A stretch of DNA of 64,000 bases. It comes from Terriglobia bacterium. Its GTDB lineage: Bacteria > Acidobacteriota > Terriglobia > 20CM-2-55-15. Shown here piece by piece: positions 30,082-58,040 of this stretch. The position numbers were made by a program, and so were the translations under genes. How positions within the stretch are numbered: position 1 is the first letter of the stretch; every line of letters begins with the position of its first letter. The stretch is from the NCBI GenBank assembly GCA_965198225.1, contig CBDAOY010000007.1:544001-608000 (forward strand), written 5' to 3'. Under the pieces are notes generated by a model. The model made no database searches. It had not been told where the DNA came from and saw only the letters and a program-made list of their open reading frames with translations.

Positions 30082-30807
30082 ATGTCTAAGACTGCGGGAA
30101 TCGTCGTCATAGGCAACGAGATCCTGTCCGGCAAGACGCGTGATGAGAACGCCGCGTACTTTCTCCGAGAGCTCAGGGACCTGGGTGTCGACGTCCGAAA
30201 GGTGTCGGTCATCCCCGACGAACTCGAGTGCATCCGCGACGAGATTCAGTCGTTCTCATCCCGTTTCGACTTCGTCTTCACGTCAGGCGGTGTCGGACCC
30301 ACTCATGACGATGTCACGATCGAAGGCATCGCCTCGGCTTTCGGCCGCGGCGTCTACCGCCACCGGGAACTGGAGTCGATGCTTCGAGGATACTATCAGG
30401 AGAGCGTGACCGAGGCCACGCTGCGTATGGCGAACGTGCCTGAAGGGGCTTTCCTCGTCCAGCGCGGCCGGATGTGGTTTCCTGTAGTGGCCGTCGAAAA
30501 CGTCTACACTTTTCCGGGAGTACCGGAAATACTCGTGGCCAAATTCGATCGGATCAAGGAGATGTTCCGCCAGGATCCGTTCTTTGTGAAGGAAGTGTTC
30601 CTGCGCGCCGACGAAGGTCAGATTGCCGACATCCTCCACGAGATCATCGACAGATTTCCGGAACTACTCCTGGGTTCCTACCCCACCTTCAATAACCCCG
30701 ATTACATGGTCAAGCTGACGCTGGAATCGAAGGACAAGAGCTATCTCGACGAAGCGTTCGACACCCTGGTGGGCCGGCTGACCGAAGCCGAGATCGCGCC
30801 CCTGTAG
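30082..30807 (+). CDS. Molybdopterin-binding / CinA N-terminal domain protein
   Basis: IGNEILSGKTRDEN, SGGVGPTHDD, FPGVP. Confidence 0.85.
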   Translation: MSKTAGIVVIGNEILSGKTRDENAAYFLRELRDLGVDVRKVSVIPDELECIRDEIQSFSSRFDFVFTSGGVGPTHDDVTIEGIASAFGRGVYRHRELESMLRGYYQESVTEATLRMANVPEGAFLVQRGRMWFPVVAVENVYTFPGVPEILVAKFDRIKEMFRQDPFFVKEVFLRADEGQIADILHEIIDRFPELLLGSYPTFNNPDYMVKLTLESKDKSYLDEAFDTLVGRLTEAEIAPL

Positions 30808-30815
30808 GGGGGGAT

Positions 30816-30988
30816 CGTAGGCCGTAGGGCGTTATCCGTAGGTCGTTGGAGTCTGAGCGGCGGTGACCGCCGGTTCTTACGGAATCAGTTCTCCCTTTCC
30901 GACTTTTCTGCCTAACGAAAACCCGAGAGTCAAGAGCCAAACTTCAATAAGGGACAACGGATAACGGCCTACGGACAACGGCCTACGA
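30816..30988. repeat. Inverted heptamer arrays (CCGTAGG family)
   Basis: cgtaggccgtagggcgttatccgtagg ... acggataacggcctacggacaacggcctacg. Confidence 0.75.
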
Positions 30989-31018
30989 ACTAGTAGCCGG
31001 TGGCCACCGGCTACTAGT
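30989..31018. repeat. Perfect 30-bp palindrome
   Basis: ACTAGTAGCCGGTGG|CCACCGGCTACTAGT. Confidence 0.9.
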
Positions 31019-31119
31019 CAAACAACCCAGGCTGCTCATGCCTCCGGATCGGTATAGCGTCCAGGACTGCGTCAAAACCCAACTCCGCACACAGGGGGTG
31101 ACCTGTTCGGGATGCCCTT
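31013..31119. repeat. 107-bp direct repeat of the 3' end of the 5'-3' exonuclease gene (left boundary of the islet)
   Basis: Matches 33648-33755 except for a 1-nt indel (acagggggtg vs acagggtggtg). Confidence 0.95.
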
Positions 31120-31482
31120 CGATGGCGCGATGATGGGCTGCTCACGCAATCCCGCCCACCTAGCAATACCCGGCCGAGGGCGGTCCATTGGAAAGCGATG
31201 GTTTCATGAACAGATCAGGTTGAACGGTTGGGGTGTTATGCGGAGCTGTAGGAGACAAGAGGCCGAGGACCGCGACAAATGGATCAAACAGCAACCGCGC
31301 CCGAAGCGCAGAATCGCACGGGCCGAAGCGCACGAATCCGCGAGAATGTGATCACTCGCGGGAGCGAAACCGAACAATCAGGGACTCCGTTTTGCCTCCG
31401 GAAGTCACGTGTCTTTTTTCGATCACCCGCGGTGTTCGTCGAGCACGGTCGGGCGTGTGGGGTGGCCTCTCGATCGGAACGC

Positions 31483-32287
31483 CTAGTTCGCTGCGCGGAC
31501 GTGCTCGATGCCCAGGGCCTCCAAGCGGTCAGCGATCGAACCGATGCCGGTGTACGCGGCCGCCATGAGATTGGGGCCGTAGAGGTGGGGTCGCCCTTCA
31601 CCGACGATTTCGGCGACCGCGCGGCGGAGGCTCTCCCGCAGAAGGAGATCCTCTCCCGGGTCGGGGACGTAGCTGTAGAAGAGGGCGCGCCGCGGCCGTC
31701 CGTCCTCCCGCTTCCAGGCGGAGTGCCAGAGCCGGTTGTGCCAGACCACCGCGTCGCCGGGATTCGTGTGGACCGATACCGCGCCGGGGATGCCGTCTCT
31801 TTTCAAGCGCAGGCGCGGTTTACCATCCTCCCATTCCCCGCACGCCGCAAACAACCCCTTGTTCCATTCCGCGTGATGGGTACCCGGAATGACATTGAGG
31901 GCGCCCTGCTGTGCGCTTGTTTCGTCCAGGTAGTACGTCACACGAATCGTCTGGACCGGGTCTCCCGGAACCCCTGCGGTGTGCCACGGCAGGTCGTCCA
32001 TGTTGGAAATGACATAGTTCCCCAGGTACAGGCAGGGTGTCGACCAGAGGTCCGTCATCGCCTCGAATCCGGGGGTGGGCGGCCGGTGCCGCAAATGCCG
32101 GGTCTCGATCCTCGGCGAAGAACAGGATCCGGCTGCCGGCATCGCCGAAATTGTCATACCGCGGCGCATCCGGCATCACGCGGTCGAACGTCTTGGTCAA
32201 CGAGTCGAGCTCGCCGGCCTCCAGACATCCCCGGACCACGACGAACCCGAACGCCCGAAACATACCGACTTCCAGCTCACTGAGCAT
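31483..32287 (-). pseudogene. PhyH-family Fe(II)/2-oxoglutarate oxygenase or halogenase-like enzyme, one frameshift at ~32070
   Basis: N-terminal FRAFGFVVVRGCL in one frame; LPWHTAG...YYLDETSAQQGALNVIPGTH...PGDAVVWHNRLWHSA...RRAL in the adjacent frame; G5 run at 32071-32075. Confidence 0.8.
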
Positions 32288-32515
32288 GCCGCGCCACTCC
32301 GGACATTCGATCTCCCGACAACCCCCGTCGGTCAGCGCGATCTATTCTAATCAACGGGTCGCCGAAAGGGTGCCATGCCCCCGCGACCCGGCAGCCGTCT
32401 GCCAGCGAGAGGCTACGGGATTTCTCTTGACTGTGCCAGGGCGCGATTCCAAGGTTGACCTAACGACTTCTCCGCAGATAAGACGAACAGTGACCTTACG
32501 TCGAGGGGGAACACC

Positions 32516-32905
32516 ATGCCGCAAAACGAAGAGGCGATCAAAGAACTCTGGGCGAAGCTCGTGGCCCAGTCGTGGGGGGATGCGAATCTGAGACAGCGCA
32601 TGCTCGATGAGCCGGCCGCGGTCTTGAAGGAGAACGGAGTTCAGGTACCCGACGGGTTCCGCGTCCACACCTTCGAGGACGACGGTCAGACCATCGTTCT
32701 ACCTGTCAATGTCGAGCCGGCTGAAACAGAGCTGTCCGAAGAGGAGCTGGAGTCCGTCGCTGGGGGCGTCGAAGTCATCGCCAACCCGACGATGGGCGCT
32801 TTGAAGGGCTTCGACTCACTGGAGTTCGTGGGCCCGTGCCTCAAACCCAAAGGTGCACTCGGGTCTGAAGGCGGGAAGACGGGTGCAATGGGGCCGTGCT
32901 TCTGA
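32516..32905 (+). CDS. NHLP-leader (nitrile hydratase-like) RiPP precursor 1
   Basis: KLVAQSWGDANLRQRMLDEPAAVLKENG...ELSEEELESVAGG double-Gly leader followed by a 45-aa core; RBS gaggggga. Confidence 0.9.
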   Translation: MPQNEEAIKELWAKLVAQSWGDANLRQRMLDEPAAVLKENGVQVPDGFRVHTFEDDGQTIVLPVNVEPAETELSEEELESVAGGVEVIANPTMGALKGFDSLEFVGPCLKPKGALGSEGGKTGAMGPCF

Positions 32906-32981
32906 ACCGACTAACGCGGCCATGGCTGCCTGGAGCTACAGGTACTCAAACAGGCAAACCGGATCGCGCCGGGGAAACGAT

Positions 32982-33380
32982 ATGCAAAACGAAGATGACA
33001 TCAAACAACTCTGGGCGAAGCTCGTGGCCAAGTCGTGGGAGGATGCGAATCTGAGACAGCGCATGCTCGATGAGCCGGCCGCGGTCTTGAAGGAGAACGG
33101 AGTTCAGGTACCCGCCGGGTTCCGCGTCCACACCTTCGAGGACGACGGTCAGACCATCGTTCTACCTGTCAATGTCGAGCCGGCTGAAACAGAGCTGTCC
33201 GAAGAGGAGCTGGAGTCCGTCGCTGGGGGCGTGGAAGTCATCGCCAACCCGACGATCGGCGCTTTGAAGGGCTTCGAGTCGCTGCTTGTCATCGGCCCGT
33301 GCGATGGACCTAGAGAGGGGATGGGTCCGTGCGCCCGGCCTAAAAGCGGGAAGACGGGTGCCATCGGGCCGTGCTTCTAG
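32982..33380 (+). CDS. NHLP-leader RiPP precursor 2
   Basis: Near-identical leader ending VAGG followed by a 49-aa core with three GPC motifs. Confidence 0.9.
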   Translation: MQNEDDIKQLWAKLVAKSWEDANLRQRMLDEPAAVLKENGVQVPAGFRVHTFEDDGQTIVLPVNVEPAETELSEEELESVAGGVEVIANPTIGALKGFESLLVIGPCDGPREGMGPCARPKSGKTGAIGPCF

Positions 33381-33575
33381 GTTTGCTGCTTAGGGTGCAA
33401 CAATAACGTCAGGGAACGCACCCCCTATTTGCAGTAAGCTGAGACCTGCACAGCGGCCAGACCGTCGCGGGGGACGGAATACGTACACGCCGGCGGACCT
33501 CACACCCGACGCACCACCGCGTCTATCAACGGACCGGCCCGCCGCAGGCGCAGACGGATAGTTTTTCTGGTCAGC

Positions 33576-33624
33576 ACCACCCCAGCGCTTCGCGCCACCC
33601 CTCCTCATCTGAGGAGGGGAGTTT
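33576..33624. repeat. CCCCTCC/GGAGGGG hairpin repeat (second copy at 46955-47014, opposite orientation)
   Basis: Reverse complement aactcccctcctcagatgaggaggggtggcgcg...ggggtggt resembles 46955-47014. Confidence 0.7.
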
Positions 33625-33648
33625 AGGTGTCGCCCCGGCCACGGACCA

Positions 33649-34566
33649 CTAGTCAAACAACCCAGGCTGCTCATGCCTCCGGATCGGTATAGCGTCCAGG
33701 ACTGCGTCAAAACCCAACTCCGCACACAGGGTGGTGACCTGTTCGGGATGCCCTTTGCGGTAGCGCAGCAAGTCGGGTGAGATGTCCATATCGACGTCGC
33801 ACCGAATCCTCGCCAGCTCGCGACTCATCCGGACAGTGTCCAGGTTTTCGCGGATGCGTTTGAGAATGCGCTCGCGTCCCCTGAATGAAACTCCGTCAAG
33901 GTCGGAGTTCACGATGTCTTCGACCGTTCGGCAGGCAGCCAGGAGTTTGCTGGCAGTCTTCCCCCCGACTCCCAGGACCCCGGGGATGTTATCGACGGAG
34001 TCGCCGAGCAGAGCCAGCAGGTCGGGCACCTGGGCGGGCTCAACGCCCAGCTTGTTCTTGACCCCAGCCCGGTCGAGCCAGACGTTCTTCGCGAGATCGT
34101 AGATCCTGATGCGTTGGTCGACCAACTGAGCAAGATCCTTGTCTCCGCTGACGATGACGACGGGATGACCCAGGTCAGCCATGCGCACGGCAAGCGATCC
34201 GATGACATCATCGGCTTCGAAGGTTTCGACCTGAAAGGCGGCGATGCCGACCGCTTCAGTGATCCGCTGGCAGTACTGAAACTGGATCTTCAGGTCGTCG
34301 GGCGGTGAAACCCGATTCGCCTTGTACTCGGTGAAGAGTTCACGCCGGAAAGAATGTGCCCCCTCGAACGCAGCAGCGATATAGGGGGGATCCTGCTCTT
34401 TGATGATGCGCAGCAGGGTTCGCAGGTAACCCAGCACCGCGTTGGTTTTCATCCCGGACGGGGCAGTGATCGTTTCGGGCAGACCGTAGTAGGCACGAAA
34501 GATGTAGTTCATCGCATCGATGAGGAAGACCGGTCTCGAATTGAGGGGTAGCGAAGTCACGTCCAA
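33649..34566 (-). CDS. Stand-alone 5'-3' exonuclease (Pol I N-terminal / flap endonuclease-like)
   Basis: LIDAMNYIFRAYY, YKANR, EADDVIG, SGDKDLAQL, GDSVDNIPGV.GVGGKTA. Confidence 0.92.
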   Translation of the reverse strand: MDVTSLPLNSRPVFLIDAMNYIFRAYYGLPETITAPSGMKTNAVLGYLRTLLRIIKEQDPPYIAAAFEGAHSFRRELFTEYKANRVSPPDDLKIQFQYCQRITEAVGIAAFQVETFEADDVIGSLAVRMADLGHPVVIVSGDKDLAQLVDQRIRIYDLAKNVWLDRAGVKNKLGVEPAQVPDLLALLGDSVDNIPGVLGVGGKTASKLLAACRTVEDIVNSDLDGVSFRGRERILKRIRENLDTVRMSRELARIRCDVDMDISPDLLRYRKGHPEQVTTLCAELGFDAVLDAIPIRRHEQPGLFD

Positions 34567-56295: not shown

Positions 56296-57009
56296 ATGCT
56301 GAACCCGAAAGTGATGGCCCTGGCGAAAAAAGCGGTTCCTTCGGCCATCTATCGTCGCCTGGATCCGTTCGAGGCTACCATTGCCTCCTTTGTCGAGAGC
56401 GTCGCCACGAACACGCCCGACGACCATCTGGTTCTGGATGCCGGCGCCGGCGAGTCGCGATTCCGGGGACTGTTTGACCACGCCCGCTACCTAACGATCG
56501 ATTTCGGGTTAGGGGATCGAGACTGGGATTACAGCGGCCTCGACATCATCGGGAGGTGCGAGGAGCTGCCGCTCGCTGATGCGAGCTGCGATAGGGTGCT
56601 CTCGGTGGTCGTGTTGGAGCACACACCCGAACCGGCCCGCGTGATCGAGGAATTCCACCGGGTGCTGAAGTCTGGAGGCAGTGTGCACATGGTCGTGCCG
56701 CACATGTGGGAAGAACACCAGCGTCCCTTCGATTACTTTCGATACACCGCGTCGGGGATTCGCTACCTCCTCGAGGAGTCCGGCTTCCGGATTCTGGAGA
56801 TTCGCCCGGTGGGCGGGTTTTTCTGGCAACTCGGCAGACGGCTGATGGGCGTACTGGCTTTTACGCAGAAGGGTTGGAGGTGGATTCTCTTTCCCTTACT
56901 GGCGCCGATCTTCGGGTTGTTCCTGCCGCTCTGCTGTTATTATCTCGATGCGCTCGATCGAGACCGTGCGTACACGTTGGGTTATGTCTGTGAGGGACTG
57001 AGAGAGTGA
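56296..57009 (+). CDS. Class I SAM-dependent methyltransferase
   Basis: LDAGAGE, VLEH.PEP, PFDYFRYT. Confidence 0.88.
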   Translation: MLNPKVMALAKKAVPSAIYRRLDPFEATIASFVESVATNTPDDHLVLDAGAGESRFRGLFDHARYLTIDFGLGDRDWDYSGLDIIGRCEELPLADASCDRVLSVVVLEHTPEPARVIEEFHRVLKSGGSVHMVVPHMWEEHQRPFDYFRYTASGIRYLLEESGFRILEIRPVGGFFWQLGRRLMGVLAFTQKGWRWILFPLLAPIFGLFLPLCCYYLDALDRDRAYTLGYVCEGLRE

Positions 57010-58040
57010 ATCGCAAGATAGGGAACCGGATGAGGATCGCGGCCAGTTATTTTCGCCGACAGGCGGTGCTGCCCGGCGGGCCCATCGAAGTCACGCTGGA
57101 GAGCACTGCGAAGTGTAACCTCTACTGCCCGATGTGTCCCCGTCACATCTATACCTTCGACGACGAGAGCATGGACCTGGATCTTTTCCGGAAGATTGTT
57201 GCCGACTGCAAGGACTACGTCGAGTTCGCCTGGCCGTACGGTATCGGCGAGCCGATGATTCATCCGGACATTTTCGAGATGATCCGGATCACGCGTGAAG
57301 CGGGCATTCGAACCGGGATGTCCACCAACGCTACCCTTCTGGACGACAAACGTGCCGACATGCTGCTCGATTCCGGATTGGACTACCTGATTCTGGCCTT
57401 CGACGGCGCCACGAAGGAGAGCTACGAGAGGTACCGCGTCGGGGCCGAGTTCGAGCGGACCCGGCAGAACATTTTCAATCTCCTGAAGAAAAAGCTCGAC
57501 CGCGGATCATCGATGTTCACCGTCGTCCAAATGGTCCTCCTGAAAGATAACCAGCACGAGGTCGACGCATACCGAAAGCTTTGGGATATCGAAGGCGTGG
57601 ACGAAGTACGTTTCAAGCGCGACGAAGTCCACATCGACGGGTCTCGCATCCCCGATTCGCAGCTGGAGGGCCAGCGGCGGAACCCCTGTCATCTCCTGTG
57701 GCGCGGACCACTCTACGTGCGCTACGACGGAAAAGCATTTCCGTGTTGCTACATGTACGACGAGGAACCGATAGGTGACTTGCGGGAGCAGTCCGTGATG
57801 GAGGTCTGGAACTCTCCGGCCATGGTCGCGTTGCGTGAGGCACACCTGGCCGGTGACGTCAGCGACTACCCTCTATGCCAGAACTGCCAGGCGGTACGCC
57901 CCGGCCTGCCCGCATTTTACGGCAGCCTGATGGTCGACGGCCTGACCGTCCGGAAGGCCGTCCCCGTCCTGGAAAAACTCGCGAAGTTTTACAAGATCAA
58001 CGTTTTTGAGAAGAAGCAGCCGGCAGGACTGGCTGACTAA
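57006..58040 (+). CDS. Radical SAM protein with SPASM/Twitch domain
   Basis: CNLYCPMC, GEPMIHP; C-terminal C...PCC...CQNC. Confidence 0.88.
   Translation: MNRKIGNRMRIAASYFRRQAVLPGGPIEVTLESTAKCNLYCPMCPRHIYTFDDESMDLDLFRKIVADCKDYVEFAWPYGIGEPMIHPDIFEMIRITREAGIRTGMSTNATLLDDKRADMLLDSGLDYLILAFDGATKESYERYRVGAEFERTRQNIFNLLKKKLDRGSSMFTVVQMVLLKDNQHEVDAYRKLWDIEGVDEVRFKRDEVHIDGSRIPDSQLEGQRRNPCHLLWRGPLYVRYDGKAFPCCYMYDEEPIGDLREQSVMEVWNSPAMVALREAHLAGDVSDYPLCQNCQAVRPGLPAFYGSLMVDGLTVRKAVPVLEKLAKFYKINVFEKKQPAGLAD

What the first reader, a model, noticed from the sequence alone, without database searches (positions are those of the whole stretch)
31013..33755. Candidate new RiPP system on a mini-islet: two GPC-motif NHLP precursors plus a halogenase-type Fe/2OG enzyme
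Seen: the whole cargo between the 107/108-bp direct repeats is two NHLP-leader precursors and one divergently transcribed PhyH-fold enzyme. No YcaO, LanM, radical SAM epimerase or C39 peptidase-ABC exporter lies nearby. Known: NHLP leaders mark proteusin-type and TOMM-type RiPPs, which normally sit with such maturases and exporters. Inference: this is either a minimal RiPP module whose tailoring enzyme is a Fe/2OG oxygenase or halogenase, or a mobile precursor cassette feeding a maturase encoded elsewhere in the genome.
Basis: partly seen in the sequence, partly recalled or inferred. Interest (0 to 1): 0.9.

Follow-up and report, generated by a model that had tools for sequence, protein, structure and literature searches.

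The report
Orphan peptide genes beside dead oxygenase
A small inserted stretch of DNA carries two intact genes for leader-bearing peptide precursors next to a broken oxygenase gene, so it is most likely not the self-contained new peptide-natural-product pathway it first looked like.

Summary
A 2.5-kb segment flanked by 107/108-bp direct repeats carries two tandem NHLP-leader precursor genes with GPC cores. It also carries a divergently placed PhyH-family Fe/2OG gene with H-T-A where relatives have H-x-D. Eight related genomes have the two flanking genes adjacent, so the segment is an insertion.

The main interpretation, a minimal RiPP module tailored by this enzyme, is poorly supported:
- The PhyH gene carries a frameshift that contigs of three independent sequencing runs reproduce without a difference.
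- All 16 aligned homologues, and 25 of 27 genomic loci, keep H-x-D.
- None of the 27 loci has an NHLP gene within 10 kb.
- Five of those genomes have no NHLP gene over the curated cut-off at all.

The second interpretation, a mobile precursor cassette served from elsewhere, is partly supported. The precursor family is confined to one genus and stands alone in the sister genomes too. The genome has no YcaO, MNIO or PqqD-type RRE. It has one LanM, whose own precursor leader is only 26-28% identical, and its single C39-ABC exporter gene is split.

Verdict: two orphan NHLP precursor genes and a dead oxygenase gene on an integrase-less islet. A recently lost Fe/2OG peptide-modifying enzyme remains possible, at about 0.1.

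The parts
30989..31018 (.). Perfect 30-nt palindrome (terminator-like hairpin) between the MoCF/FAD-synthase-like gene and the displaced exonuclease 3' end. The left repeat starts inside its second arm.
   Evidence: self-match on the opposite strand; reverse complement equals itself
31002..31119 (-). Left direct repeat: an orphan, displaced copy of the last ~95 coding nt plus 12 nt downstream of the 5'-3' exonuclease gene. It has a 1-nt deletion relative to the right copy.
   Evidence: (tblastn 83% over 36 aa)
31120..31482 (.). Non-coding spacer of the islet. It holds a ~42-46-nt element (about 31293-31345) with 4 further partial copies in the genome, and a terminator-like hairpin on the minus strand.
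   Evidence: no Rfam match
31483..32287 (-). PhyH-family Fe(II)/2OG dioxygenase pseudogene. N-terminal frame 32066-32287, C-terminal frame 31483-32067, one frameshift at the junction. H-T-A replaces H-x-D (codons 31975-31983). The distal His is kept (31723-31725).
32288..32515 (.). 228-nt divergent intergenic region between the PhyH start and the first precursor. No sigma-70-like site was found.
32516..32905 (+). Precursor A, 129 aa: NHLP leader 32516-32767 ending in VAGG, then a 45-aa core with 2 GPC motifs, ending GPCF.
32982..33380 (+). Precursor B, 132 aa: NHLP leader 32982-33230 ending in VAGG, then a 49-aa core with 3 GPC motifs, ending GPCF. 300 nt of leader DNA are 96% identical to precursor A (tandem duplicate).
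   Evidence: (D1)
33540..33635 (.). REP-like repeat with an internal palindrome, at the right inner end of the islet. It has 32 further hits in the genome, and copies in related genomes.
   Evidence: (depth about 900-2100 against about 4-20 beside it)
33637..33755 (-). Right direct repeat: the 3' end now used by the exonuclease gene.
33649..34566 (-). 5'-3' exonuclease gene, the target of the insertion. It is intact.

Best explanation
The 2.5-kb segment is a horizontally acquired islet without an integrase. It entered the last ~107 nt of the 5'-3' exonuclease gene and brought a replacement 3' end, which produced the direct repeats. This is the pattern of an integrative element recombining at a gene's 3' end, here reduced to cargo plus attL/attR-like repeats.

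Its cargo is:
(i) two tandemly duplicated, intact genes for NHLP-leader, double-glycine-type peptide precursors. They belong to a small family found only in this genus, with a conserved leader and hypervariable cores; here the cores are Cys-bearing GPC cores.
(ii) a PhyH-family Fe/2OG dioxygenase gene that is now a pseudogene, with one fixed frameshift and the iron-binding Asp replaced by Ala.

The islet is therefore not a working, self-contained RiPP pathway. If the peptides are made, they depend on functions encoded elsewhere. For the family as a whole the most economical route is leader cleavage and export by the genus's C39-peptidase ABC transporter, with no tailoring by the neighbouring enzyme. 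In this genome that transporter gene is split, so the two precursors may currently be unprocessed orphans.

Shown: the anatomy, the insertion, the broken PhyH, the lack of PhyH-NHLP linkage elsewhere, and the orphan status of the family.
Inferred: the integration mechanism, the export route, and the absence of tailoring.
For: Insertion:
- In 8 related genomes (G001, G002, G003 of the same genus; G005, G006, G012, G015, G016 of the same family) the two flanking genes match with 75-358 bp between the two matches.
- The left repeat keeps the native hairpin, and the right repeat restores the reading frame, which ends ...HEQPGLFD as in G002.
- None of the genome's 32 integrase matches lies in the window.

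PhyH is broken:
- The two frames abut at profile positions 74/75.
- Contigs of runs X1 (1298 nt, depth 21.5), X3 (1045 nt, 7.6) and X5 (960 nt, 2.2) cover the site with 0 other letters and 0 gaps.
- The 191-aa truncated product was seen on 3 contigs. A variant on another contig has a second frameshift.

PhyH is not a RiPP enzyme by family:
- 16 of 16 aligned homologues have H-x-D, as do 25 of 27 loci.
- 0 of 27 loci have an NHLP-leader ORF within +-10 kb: best E 1.6 among 5904 ORFs, while the window's own two score about 1e-43.
- At the 3 of these loci scanned, 5 of 6 neighbouring proteins matched: other PhyH paralogues, GFO/IDH/MocA, UxuA, a permease.
- 0 of 5 such genomes have TIGR03793 over the cut-off.
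- The nearest solved structures are EctD, EvdO2, PhyH and SnoK hydroxylases, with no halogenase at E <= 0.01.
- There is no orthologue in the 33 other genomes of the organism's own family: best 51.7 bits against 311.

Precursors are orphans:
- Strong family matches occur only in genus g1, among the 34 genomes of the family and 400 sampled from the class.
- In G001-G003 single copies lie with no maturase within 10 kb.
- The genome has no YcaO, MbnB/DUF692 or PqqD match.
- The C39-ABC locus is orthologous in G000, G002 and G003. It is whole only in G003 (697-aa open frame), 464 aa plus an inverted ATPase piece in G000, and 370 aa in G002.
Against: - PhyH and the precursors lie together inside one pair of repeats, head to head, 228 nt apart. 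They therefore arrived as a unit, and a 2.5-kb cargo of just these genes hints at a functional link in the donor.
- There is only one disabling lesion in about 800 nt, although the copy differs at 8 of 48 columns that are invariant in 16 homologues. Most of those changes, possibly including Asp to Ala, may therefore predate inactivation. In that case an H-x-A enzyme may once have worked.
- Fe/2OG hydroxylases are known accessory enzymes of NHLP pathways: PoyI, PhaI, EreI (passages of review PMC9505594).
- No integrase or excised form was seen, so the integration mechanism is inferred.
- No RNA or peptide data bear on the precursors.
- The genomic context of the one other GPC-type precursor (P0023) could not be fetched.
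Confidence: 0.6

Rival explanations
1. The H-x-A PhyH enzyme was the dedicated tailoring enzyme of the GPC peptides in the donor: a peptide halogenase, or another radical Fe/2OG chemistry on the cores. It was inactivated only recently in this lineage, so the islet is a freshly dead, novel RiPP module.
For: - The genes were acquired together inside one repeat pair, in divergent arrangement.
- The H-T-A...H motif is present, with the distal His and the Arg-rich 2OG region kept.
- There is a single frameshift despite 8 of 48 changes at otherwise invariant columns.
- Fe/2OG enzymes are known in NHLP pathways (passages).
- Two literature searches turned up no Fe/2OG RiPP halogenase; the halogenases among the 13 papers listed (of 28 that matched the terms) are flavin-dependent.
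Against: - No intact copy was seen. Three runs and a further contig all carry the frameshift, and one assembly has two.
- No relative has H-x-A/G (0 of 16; 0 of 25 readable loci).
- No relative is linked to an NHLP gene (0 of 27).
- The nearest solved structures are hydroxylases, not halogenases.
- Loss of the Asp is also what a dying gene shows.
- The cores have no obvious aliphatic hot spot or carrier that would point to halogenation.
Confidence: 0.12
2. The two Cys-bearing cores are substrates in trans of the genome's single LanM, as prochlorosin precursors scattered around the genome are for ProcM. The products would be lanthipeptides with rings closed onto the GPC cysteines.
For: - There is an intact LanM: TIGR03897, 862 bits against a cut-off of 304, beside an NHLP precursor on C6.
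- Each core has 2 Ser and 2 Thr, with 2-3 Cys.
- LanMs that take NHLP precursors with conserved leaders and variable cores are documented (PMC12537861, section 6 read).
Against: - Leader identity to the LanM-adjacent precursor is only 26-28%.
- The studied NHLP-type LanM, DprM, rejected four foreign NHLP leaders (passages).
- 10 of 13 aligned family members have no Cys in the core.
- G001 and G003 carry the family but have no LanM at E <= 1e-20.
- Precursor B has no Ser or Thr between its first and second Cys.
Confidence: 0.12
3. The module works today. Either the frameshift is bypassed or the two PhyH pieces assemble, and the enzyme modifies the peptides.
For: - Both frames are otherwise open, and the C-terminal piece starts with ATG.
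- The frameshift lies a few bases from a run of five C on the coding strand.
Against: - No known slippery motif is present. By recalled knowledge, a C5 run is too short for efficient transcriptional slippage.
- The N-terminal ORF runs on for 82 out-of-frame residues.
- A second assembly has a further frameshift.
- The iron ligand is missing as well.
Confidence: 0.03
4. The whole islet is inert debris. The precursors are not expressed and merely have not yet decayed.
For: - The only C39 exporter is split.
- The PhyH gene is dead.
- No sigma-70-like promoter was found.
- Repeated elements crowd the islet.
Against: - Both precursor ORFs are intact, with Shine-Dalgarno-like purine runs upstream.
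- The leader is conserved while the cores diverge by substitutions and indels without breaking the frame. That is the usual signature of precursors under selection.
- The genome has expanded the family to four strong copies, against one in each sister genome.
Confidence: 0.13

Closest known systems
NHLP-leader RiPP precursors (TIGR03793; proteusin-type and NHLP-type lanthipeptide precursors such as OspA and DprE1-7)
   Same: An ~84-aa nitrile-hydratase-like leader that scores over the curated cut-off and ends in a double glycine. The leader is conserved and the cores are hypervariable. Several copies occur per genome.
   Different: No maturase or exporter lies beside them here or in sister genomes. 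The GPC-repeat cores were not found elsewhere, apart from one metagenomic relative. Most family members have no Cys.
Prochlorosin-type arrangement (many precursors, some remote, served by one promiscuous LanM; recalled, and referred to in PMC12537861)
   Same: Precursor genes scattered over the genome. There is a single LanM in the genome.
   Different: The leaders here fall into groups only 26-42% identical to the LanM-adjacent one. Sister genomes keep the family without LanM.
Fe(II)/2OG hydroxylases of NHLP pathways (PoyI, PhaI, EreI; review passages)
   Same: An Fe/2OG-type gene next to NHLP precursor genes.
   Different: Relatedness could not be tested because none of their sequences was at hand. 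The gene here is frameshifted, lacks the Asp ligand, and its own orthologues are not in RiPP clusters.
Fe/2OG halogenases with H-x-A/G...H (SyrB2, WelO5, BesD types; recalled)
   Same: PhyH-like fold family. Ala stands in place of the carboxylate ligand, and the distal His is kept.
   Different: The gene is broken. No halogenase appears among sequence-detectable solved relatives. All relatives are H-x-D. No carrier protein or other halogenase context is present.
CIME-like remnants of integrative elements (att-flanked cargo without recombinase; recalled)
   Same: The cargo is flanked by direct repeats that duplicate the 3' end of the target gene. The target gene is restored. The site is empty in relatives.
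   Different: No integrase lies in the window. No excised circle or second occupied site was seen. Other family genomes have unrelated genes in this gap without such repeats.

Membership tests
NHLP leader peptide family RiPP precursor (TIGR03793) | Leader matches the curated model over its cut-off | tested here: met
   64.8 and 66.8 bits against a cut-off of 50.9
NHLP leader peptide family RiPP precursor (TIGR03793) | Double-glycine leader end followed by a variable core | tested here: met
   VAGG at residues 81-84 and 80-83. The cores diverge while 300 nt of leader DNA are 96% identical.
NHLP leader peptide family RiPP precursor (TIGR03793) | Genomic association with a maturase (YcaO, LanM, radical SAM) and an NHLP-type C39 ABC exporter with HlyD | tested here: not met
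   None in the islet or near it. In the genome: no YcaO; LanM only on C6; the C39-ABC is split; TIGR03794 best 58.8 bits against a cut-off of 156.
NHLP leader peptide family RiPP precursor (TIGR03793) | Post-translational modification of the core | not testable with these tools
   Needs mass spectrometry.
Proteusins (NHLP precursor plus radical SAM epimerase and further tailoring) | PoyD/OspD-type radical SAM epimerase in the cluster | not tested
   I knew no accession for a model of this enzyme family. Only SPASM (2 matches, neither near an NHLP gene) and PqqD (0 matches) were searched.
Class II lanthipeptide precursor | LanM encoded with the precursor | tested here: not met
   The only LanM is on contig C6, and the islet is on C7.
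Class II lanthipeptide precursor | Core with Cys and Ser/Thr able to form thioether rings | tested here: met
   2 Ser, 2 Thr and 2-3 Cys per core.
Class II lanthipeptide precursor | Leader like that of the LanM's cognate substrate | tested here: not met
   26-28% identity to the C6 precursor leader. For comparison, foreign NHLPs were not accepted by DprM.
PhyH (PF05721) Fe(II)/2OG dioxygenase | Match to the Pfam model | tested here: met
   39.4 bits against a cut-off of 22 on the C-terminal frame. Homologues of 261-285 aa are 37-54% identical.
PhyH (PF05721) Fe(II)/2OG dioxygenase | H-x-D/E...H facial triad and an intact reading frame | tested here: not met
   H-T-A instead of H-x-D. Frameshift at about 32066.
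Fe/2OG halogenase | H-x-A/G...H motif | tested here: met
   WHTA at 31975-31986(-) and distal His at 31723-31725(-).
Fe/2OG halogenase | Intact, expressible gene | tested here: not met
   The frameshift is reproduced in contigs of 3 runs. A second frameshift occurs in another assembly.
Fe/2OG halogenase | Relatives or structures that are halogenases; halide-binding second sphere | tested here: inconclusive
   The profile search of solved structures finds only hydroxylase-type enzymes. The second sphere was not modelled.
Integrative-element remnant (CIME-like) | Direct repeats duplicating the target, and an empty site in relatives | tested here: met
Integrative-element remnant (CIME-like) | A cognate recombinase somewhere, and evidence of excision or repeated use of the site | tested here: not met
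   No integrase in the window. No joints in the laid contigs. In G008, G011 and G017 the gap holds other genes, and no repeats of the exonuclease end flank them.

The most novel reading that the evidence does not exclude
The islet is the freshly inactivated copy of an undescribed RiPP module. In it, a PhyH-fold Fe/2OG enzyme that lost its carboxylate ligand (H-x-A, the halogenase-type site) acts on NHLP-led peptides with repeated GPC motifs. That would be the first Fe/2OG halogenase, or a related radical C-H/C-S chemistry, in ribosomal peptides. Intact copies would then circulate in the same host-associated community.
Probability: 0.1. Interest if true: 0.85.

Novelty: new member of a known kind. 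Interest (0 to 1): 0.35.

Why it matters
If the plain reading is right, this is a caution for genome mining. A neat-looking "precursor plus odd enzyme" mini-cluster can be an accident of mobile cargo plus gene decay. It also documents a genus-restricted family of stand-alone NHLP precursors whose processing machinery (the C39 exporter) is itself eroding in two of three genomes.

If the minority reading is right, it would open Fe/2OG halogenation, or related radical chemistry, on ribosomal peptides. The two literature searches run here listed no such chemistry. The reading is directly testable by co-expression.

Tried and rejected
1. RNA evidence. The one RNA run (X13) laid only on 33585-33800, the repeat element and the exonuclease end. 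It says nothing about expression of the precursors.

2. LanM binding. Complex prediction with LanM residues 1-700 and precursor B gave no verdict (score 0.02). It is not used either way.

3. Context of the only other GPC-type precursor, P0023. The scans of genome contigs and metagenome contigs were already spent.

4. Core-only protein search (residues 84-132). It returned only the protein itself, from 1 candidate.

5. Metagenome scan with the precursor alignment. It gave 7 loci with leaders only 33-44% identical. By eye (no family scan run), L050 and L053 look like classical clusters with large transporter-like and cyclodehydratase-like ORFs. I use them only as an informal contrast.

6. Rfam search on 30700-33800: no match at E <= 1.

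7. Promoter and terminator scan: 0 promoter-like sites, and 2 terminator-like sites against 2.8 expected. Uninformative.

8. GC profile. The PhyH part is at 0.64-0.67 against 0.55-0.62 in the flanks. Too weak to use.

9. Integration hot spot. G017, G008 and G011 have 1-3.4 kb of other genes in the same gap, but no repeats of the exonuclease end flank them. Recurrent site-specific use is not shown.

10. SrpE-type class. Its core is LCCCW, with a YcaO and a flavin brominase (passages of PMC10858898). It is not the GPC type.

11. Weak tblastn hits of the cores next to PhyH orthologues (E 4-6). They lie antisense to the start of an oxidoreductase gene and were rejected as chance.

12. The C5:470-kb "NHLP" matches are a true nitrile hydratase locus, judged by eye from the subunit sequences.

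13. Atlas look-ups. The precursor gives NHLP clusters at 0.85-0.86. A housekeeping peptidase gives clusters whose commonest phylum label is Verrucomicrobiota. That is a lead only and is not used.

Supplements of papers were not asked for; Table S1 of PMC12537861, which lists the leader sequences, might bear on the LanM comparison.

Full report
**What is there.**
- The window is G000:C7:544001-608000 of a 6.4-Mb, 9-contig genome, and the window itself has 60% G+C.
- Two direct repeats lie between a MoCF/FAD-synthase-like gene (30082-30807, +) and a 5'-3' exonuclease gene (33649-34566, -). They are at 31002-31119 and 33637-33755.
- Aligned, the two copies are identical from CTAGTC onward except for one 1-nt indel.
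- The right copy is the last ~95 coding nt plus 12 nt downstream of the exonuclease gene. The left copy is an orphan duplicate of it.
- The left copy is preceded by a perfect 30-nt palindrome at 30989-31018, and the right copy keeps only a degenerate half of it. So the left copy is the displaced original end, and the incoming DNA supplied the end now in use.
- Between the repeats lie, in order:
  - a 363-nt spacer;
  - a PhyH-family gene on the minus strand (31483-32287);
  - a 228-nt divergent gap;
  - two precursor genes on the plus strand (32516-32905 and 32982-33380);
  - 256 nt that end in a REP-like element.

**It is an insertion.**
- A DNA search of 30 relatives matched both flanking genes in 8 genomes with only 75-358 bp between the two matches: G001, G002 and G003 of the same genus, and G005, G006, G012, G015 and G016 of the same family.
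- Nothing between the repeats matched in those genomes, apart from short repeated elements.
- The genome has 32 tyrosine-integrase matches, and none lies in the window.
- In three further family genomes (G017, G008, G011) the same gap holds other genes, and no repeats of the exonuclease end flank them.
- I read the islet as the att-flanked remnant of an integrative element, or as a single-crossover insertion of a circle that carried the 107-nt homology. Which of the two is not resolved.

**The precursors.**
- Both score over the curated cut-off of TIGR03793: 64.8 and 66.8 bits against 50.9.
- Their leaders end in VAGG.
- The cores are 45 and 49 residues long, with 2 and 3 GPC motifs, 2 Ser and 2 Thr each, and both end in GPCF.
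- 300 nt of leader DNA are 96% identical between the two genes, while the cores differ by substitutions and indels. This is a tandem duplicate with a diverging core.
- The word-based protein search found 13 relatives at E <= 0.001 among 35 candidates.
  - The leaders are highly conserved.
  - The cores are variable, with a loose LK[SG]F...SL motif just after the leader.
  - Only one other protein, P0023 (69% identical), has GPC motifs, three of them.
- The exhaustive profile search found 4078 proteins at E <= 0.001, but only 6 at E <= 1e-30.
- Of the 161 proteins I examined (P0021-P0181), 4 contain GPC: the window's two, P0023, and an unrelated Cys-rich core, P0108.
- A core-only search returned only the protein itself.

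**The precursor family stands alone everywhere I could look.**
- Strong matches (109-195 bits) occur only in the organism's own genus, in G000 to G003. This holds among the 34 genomes of the family and 400 sampled genomes of the class.
- G000 has four strong copies: two in the islet and two on contig C8.
- The C8 copies lie with a third, more distant NHLP gene between two sensor kinases and a giant adhesin-like gene.
- G001, G002 and G003 each have one copy. Within 10 kb their neighbours are outer-membrane or TonB-type proteins, DUF885, a MacB-type permease and, in G003, a prophage integrase. No maturase is among them.

**Machinery in the genome.**

| Function | Result |
|---|---|
| YcaO | no match |
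| MbnB/DUF692 | no match |
| PqqD-type RRE | no match |
| SPASM radical SAM | 2 matches. One is in the window at 57006-58040, beside mqnE, and is under every NCBIfam cut-off. |
| LanM | 1 match, 862 bits, on C6 beside an NHLP precursor with a Cys-bearing core |
| C39 peptidase domain | 1 match, on C5 |

- The C39 gene stops after 464 aa, at model positions 1-416 of 708. Its ATPase part lies inverted 2.2 kb away, next to a HlyD-like gene.
- The locus is orthologous in the sister genomes. It is whole in G003 (697-aa open frame) and truncated in G002 (370 aa).

**The LanM hypothesis.**
- LanM is present in G000 and G002 but not in G001 or G003 at E <= 1e-20.
- The islet leaders are 26-28% identical to the leader of the LanM-adjacent precursor.
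- In the one biochemical study I read in part (PMC12537861; outline, section 6 and passages), the NHLP-type LanM DprM modified variable cores but rejected four foreign NHLP leaders.
- A complex prediction gave no verdict and is not used.

**The PhyH gene.**
- The C-terminal frame matches PF05721 at 39.4 bits against a cut-off of 22.
- Homologues of 261-285 aa are 37-54% identical.
- The family profile matches the N-terminal frame (positions 1-74) and the C-terminal frame (positions 75-267) back to back at window ~32066/32067. That is one clean frameshift.
- Logan contigs of three runs with three host labels and three studies cover 31310-32607 with no differing letter and no gap: X1 1298 nt, X3 1045+283 nt, X5 339+960 nt. 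The best holder may be the source sample, but the other two are independent of it.
- The truncated 191-aa product was recorded on 3 contigs. A variant on another contig has a second frameshift near the C-terminus.
- At the facial-triad column all 16 aligned homologues have H-x-D, and the window has H-T-A.
- In 27 loci from named genome records, 25 show WH[ST]DG. The records are MAGs labelled Poribacteria, Latescibacterota, Caldilineaceae and Dehalococcoidia. In the other two I found no motif: L036, whose ORF is short, and L039, a 32% hit.
- The window copy deviates at 8 of 48 columns that are invariant in the 16 others. Each of the others deviates at 0-4 of 40-44. The window copy is also the most distant member, so this is only suggestive.

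**PhyH relatives are not RiPP enzymes.**
- Among 5904 ORFs of 30 aa or more in the 27 loci (+-10 kb), none matches an NHLP-leader profile built from this genome's six leaders. The best E is 1.6, while the window's own two score about 1e-43.
- At the 3 of these loci scanned (6 neighbouring proteins, 5 with a match), the neighbours are further PhyH paralogues, a GFO/IDH/MocA oxidoreductase, UxuA and a permease.
- Five of these genomes, searched whole with TIGR03793, have no match over the cut-off. One has two sub-threshold matches in a single 270-aa frame, the pattern that the true nitrile hydratase gives in G000.
- The nearest solved structures by profile are ectoine hydroxylases, EvdO2, PhyH-named dioxygenases and SnoK. 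No halogenase appears at E <= 0.01.
- None of the 33 other genomes of the organism's own family has an orthologue: best 51.7 bits against 311. The gene therefore came in with the islet.

**Weighing.**
- Against a working PhyH-RiPP module:
  - a fixed frameshift;
  - a missing metal ligand;
  - no intact or H-x-A relative;
  - no PhyH-NHLP linkage anywhere else.
- For a past link:
  - The three genes arrived as one 2.5-kb unit, head to head.
  - There is a single lesion in about 800 nt, which suggests the gene died recently. Asp to Ala may therefore predate its death.
  - Fe/2OG hydroxylases are known accessory enzymes of NHLP pathways: PoyI, PhaI, EreI (passages of review PMC9505594).
- Two literature searches listed no Fe/2OG halogenase acting on a RiPP. 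The halogenases among the 13 papers listed (of 28 that matched the terms) are flavin-dependent. A third search, for NHLP together with PhyH, found no paper. These searches cover only the held library.

**Verdict.**
- The main interpretation, a candidate new RiPP system tailored by a halogenase-type Fe/2OG enzyme, is not supported as a living system. It survives only as a roughly 0.1 possibility of a recently dead one.
- The alternative, a mobile precursor cassette served from elsewhere, fits better. However, no matching maturase was found, and the only dedicated exporter is broken.
- The best description is two orphan NHLP-leader precursor genes of a genus-restricted family, plus a PhyH pseudogene, on an integrase-less insertion.
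- Interest is moderate to low (0.35). Novelty: a new member of a known kind.

**Limits.**
- Only contigs, not raw reads, were laid.
- No expression or mass data exist.

Noticed in passing
window 33540-33635: A ~90-nt REP-like element with an internal palindrome. It gives 32 further hits in this genome, and copies occur in related genomes (G004, G007, G008, G009, G011, G014). Contig depth over it is about 900-2100 against about 4-20 beside it.
   Followed up: partly
window 30815-30988: Long imperfect inverted repeat (arms 30815-30848 and 30955-30988, 71-88% complementary) with 14-nt tandem units, just downstream of the MoCF-like gene. Possibly another repeat-element family.
   Followed up: no
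G000:C5:290201-294638 (L077:10202-14638): The genome's only C39-peptidase ABC exporter gene is split. The C39 plus membrane part (464 aa) lies on one strand. The ATPase part (268 aa) and a HlyD-like gene lie on the other, with two small ORFs between that I took by eye for a toxin-antitoxin pair (one scanned, no Pfam match). The orthologous gene is whole in G003 and truncated in G002.
   Followed up: partly
G000:C6:465747-469643 (L011:5748-9643): An intact class II lanthipeptide locus: a 1102-aa LanM beside a 139-aa NHLP precursor with a Cys-bearing core, with two ABC half-transporters without a C39 domain about 1.4 kb beyond it. An orthologous LanM and precursor occur in G002.
   Followed up: partly
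G000:C8:1152513-1153841 (L009:12514-13842): Three tandem NHLP precursor genes without Cys in two of the cores. Two end in the same ...SIRSFGSLQMFGR tail. They lie between two Reg_prop/Y_Y_Y sensor kinases and a >1900-aa cadherin/Big_9 adhesin-like gene. No maturase is adjacent.
   Followed up: partly
window 57006-58040: A radical SAM/SPASM gene under every NCBIfam cut-off (best 122.8 bits against 380). It lies after mqnE and a methyltransferase-like gene, 24 kb from the islet. No link to the precursors is shown.
   Followed up: no
window 31269: One contig of run X1 lacks 24 nt here, which points to a length variant of the islet's left spacer in the population.
   Followed up: no
L050 and L051 (metagenome contigs): A distant NHLP precursor (39% identical leader, core ending ...CLYESY) sits beside a 394-aa FAD-binding-type ORF and large transporter-like and cyclodehydratase-like ORFs. 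It looks like a classical halogenase/azoline-type NHLP cluster. This is judged by eye only.
   Followed up: no
protein hits P0036-P0045 and others: Many relatives of the leader profile are 170-400-aa proteins with 2-4 tandem NHLP domains before one double-glycine site and a Gly/Tyr-rich tail.
   Followed up: no
L072:10687-11931 (G003): In G003 a prophage-like region (integrase, terminase-like genes) lies directly downstream of the orthologous stand-alone precursor gene. In G002 the same site has no such region.
   Followed up: no
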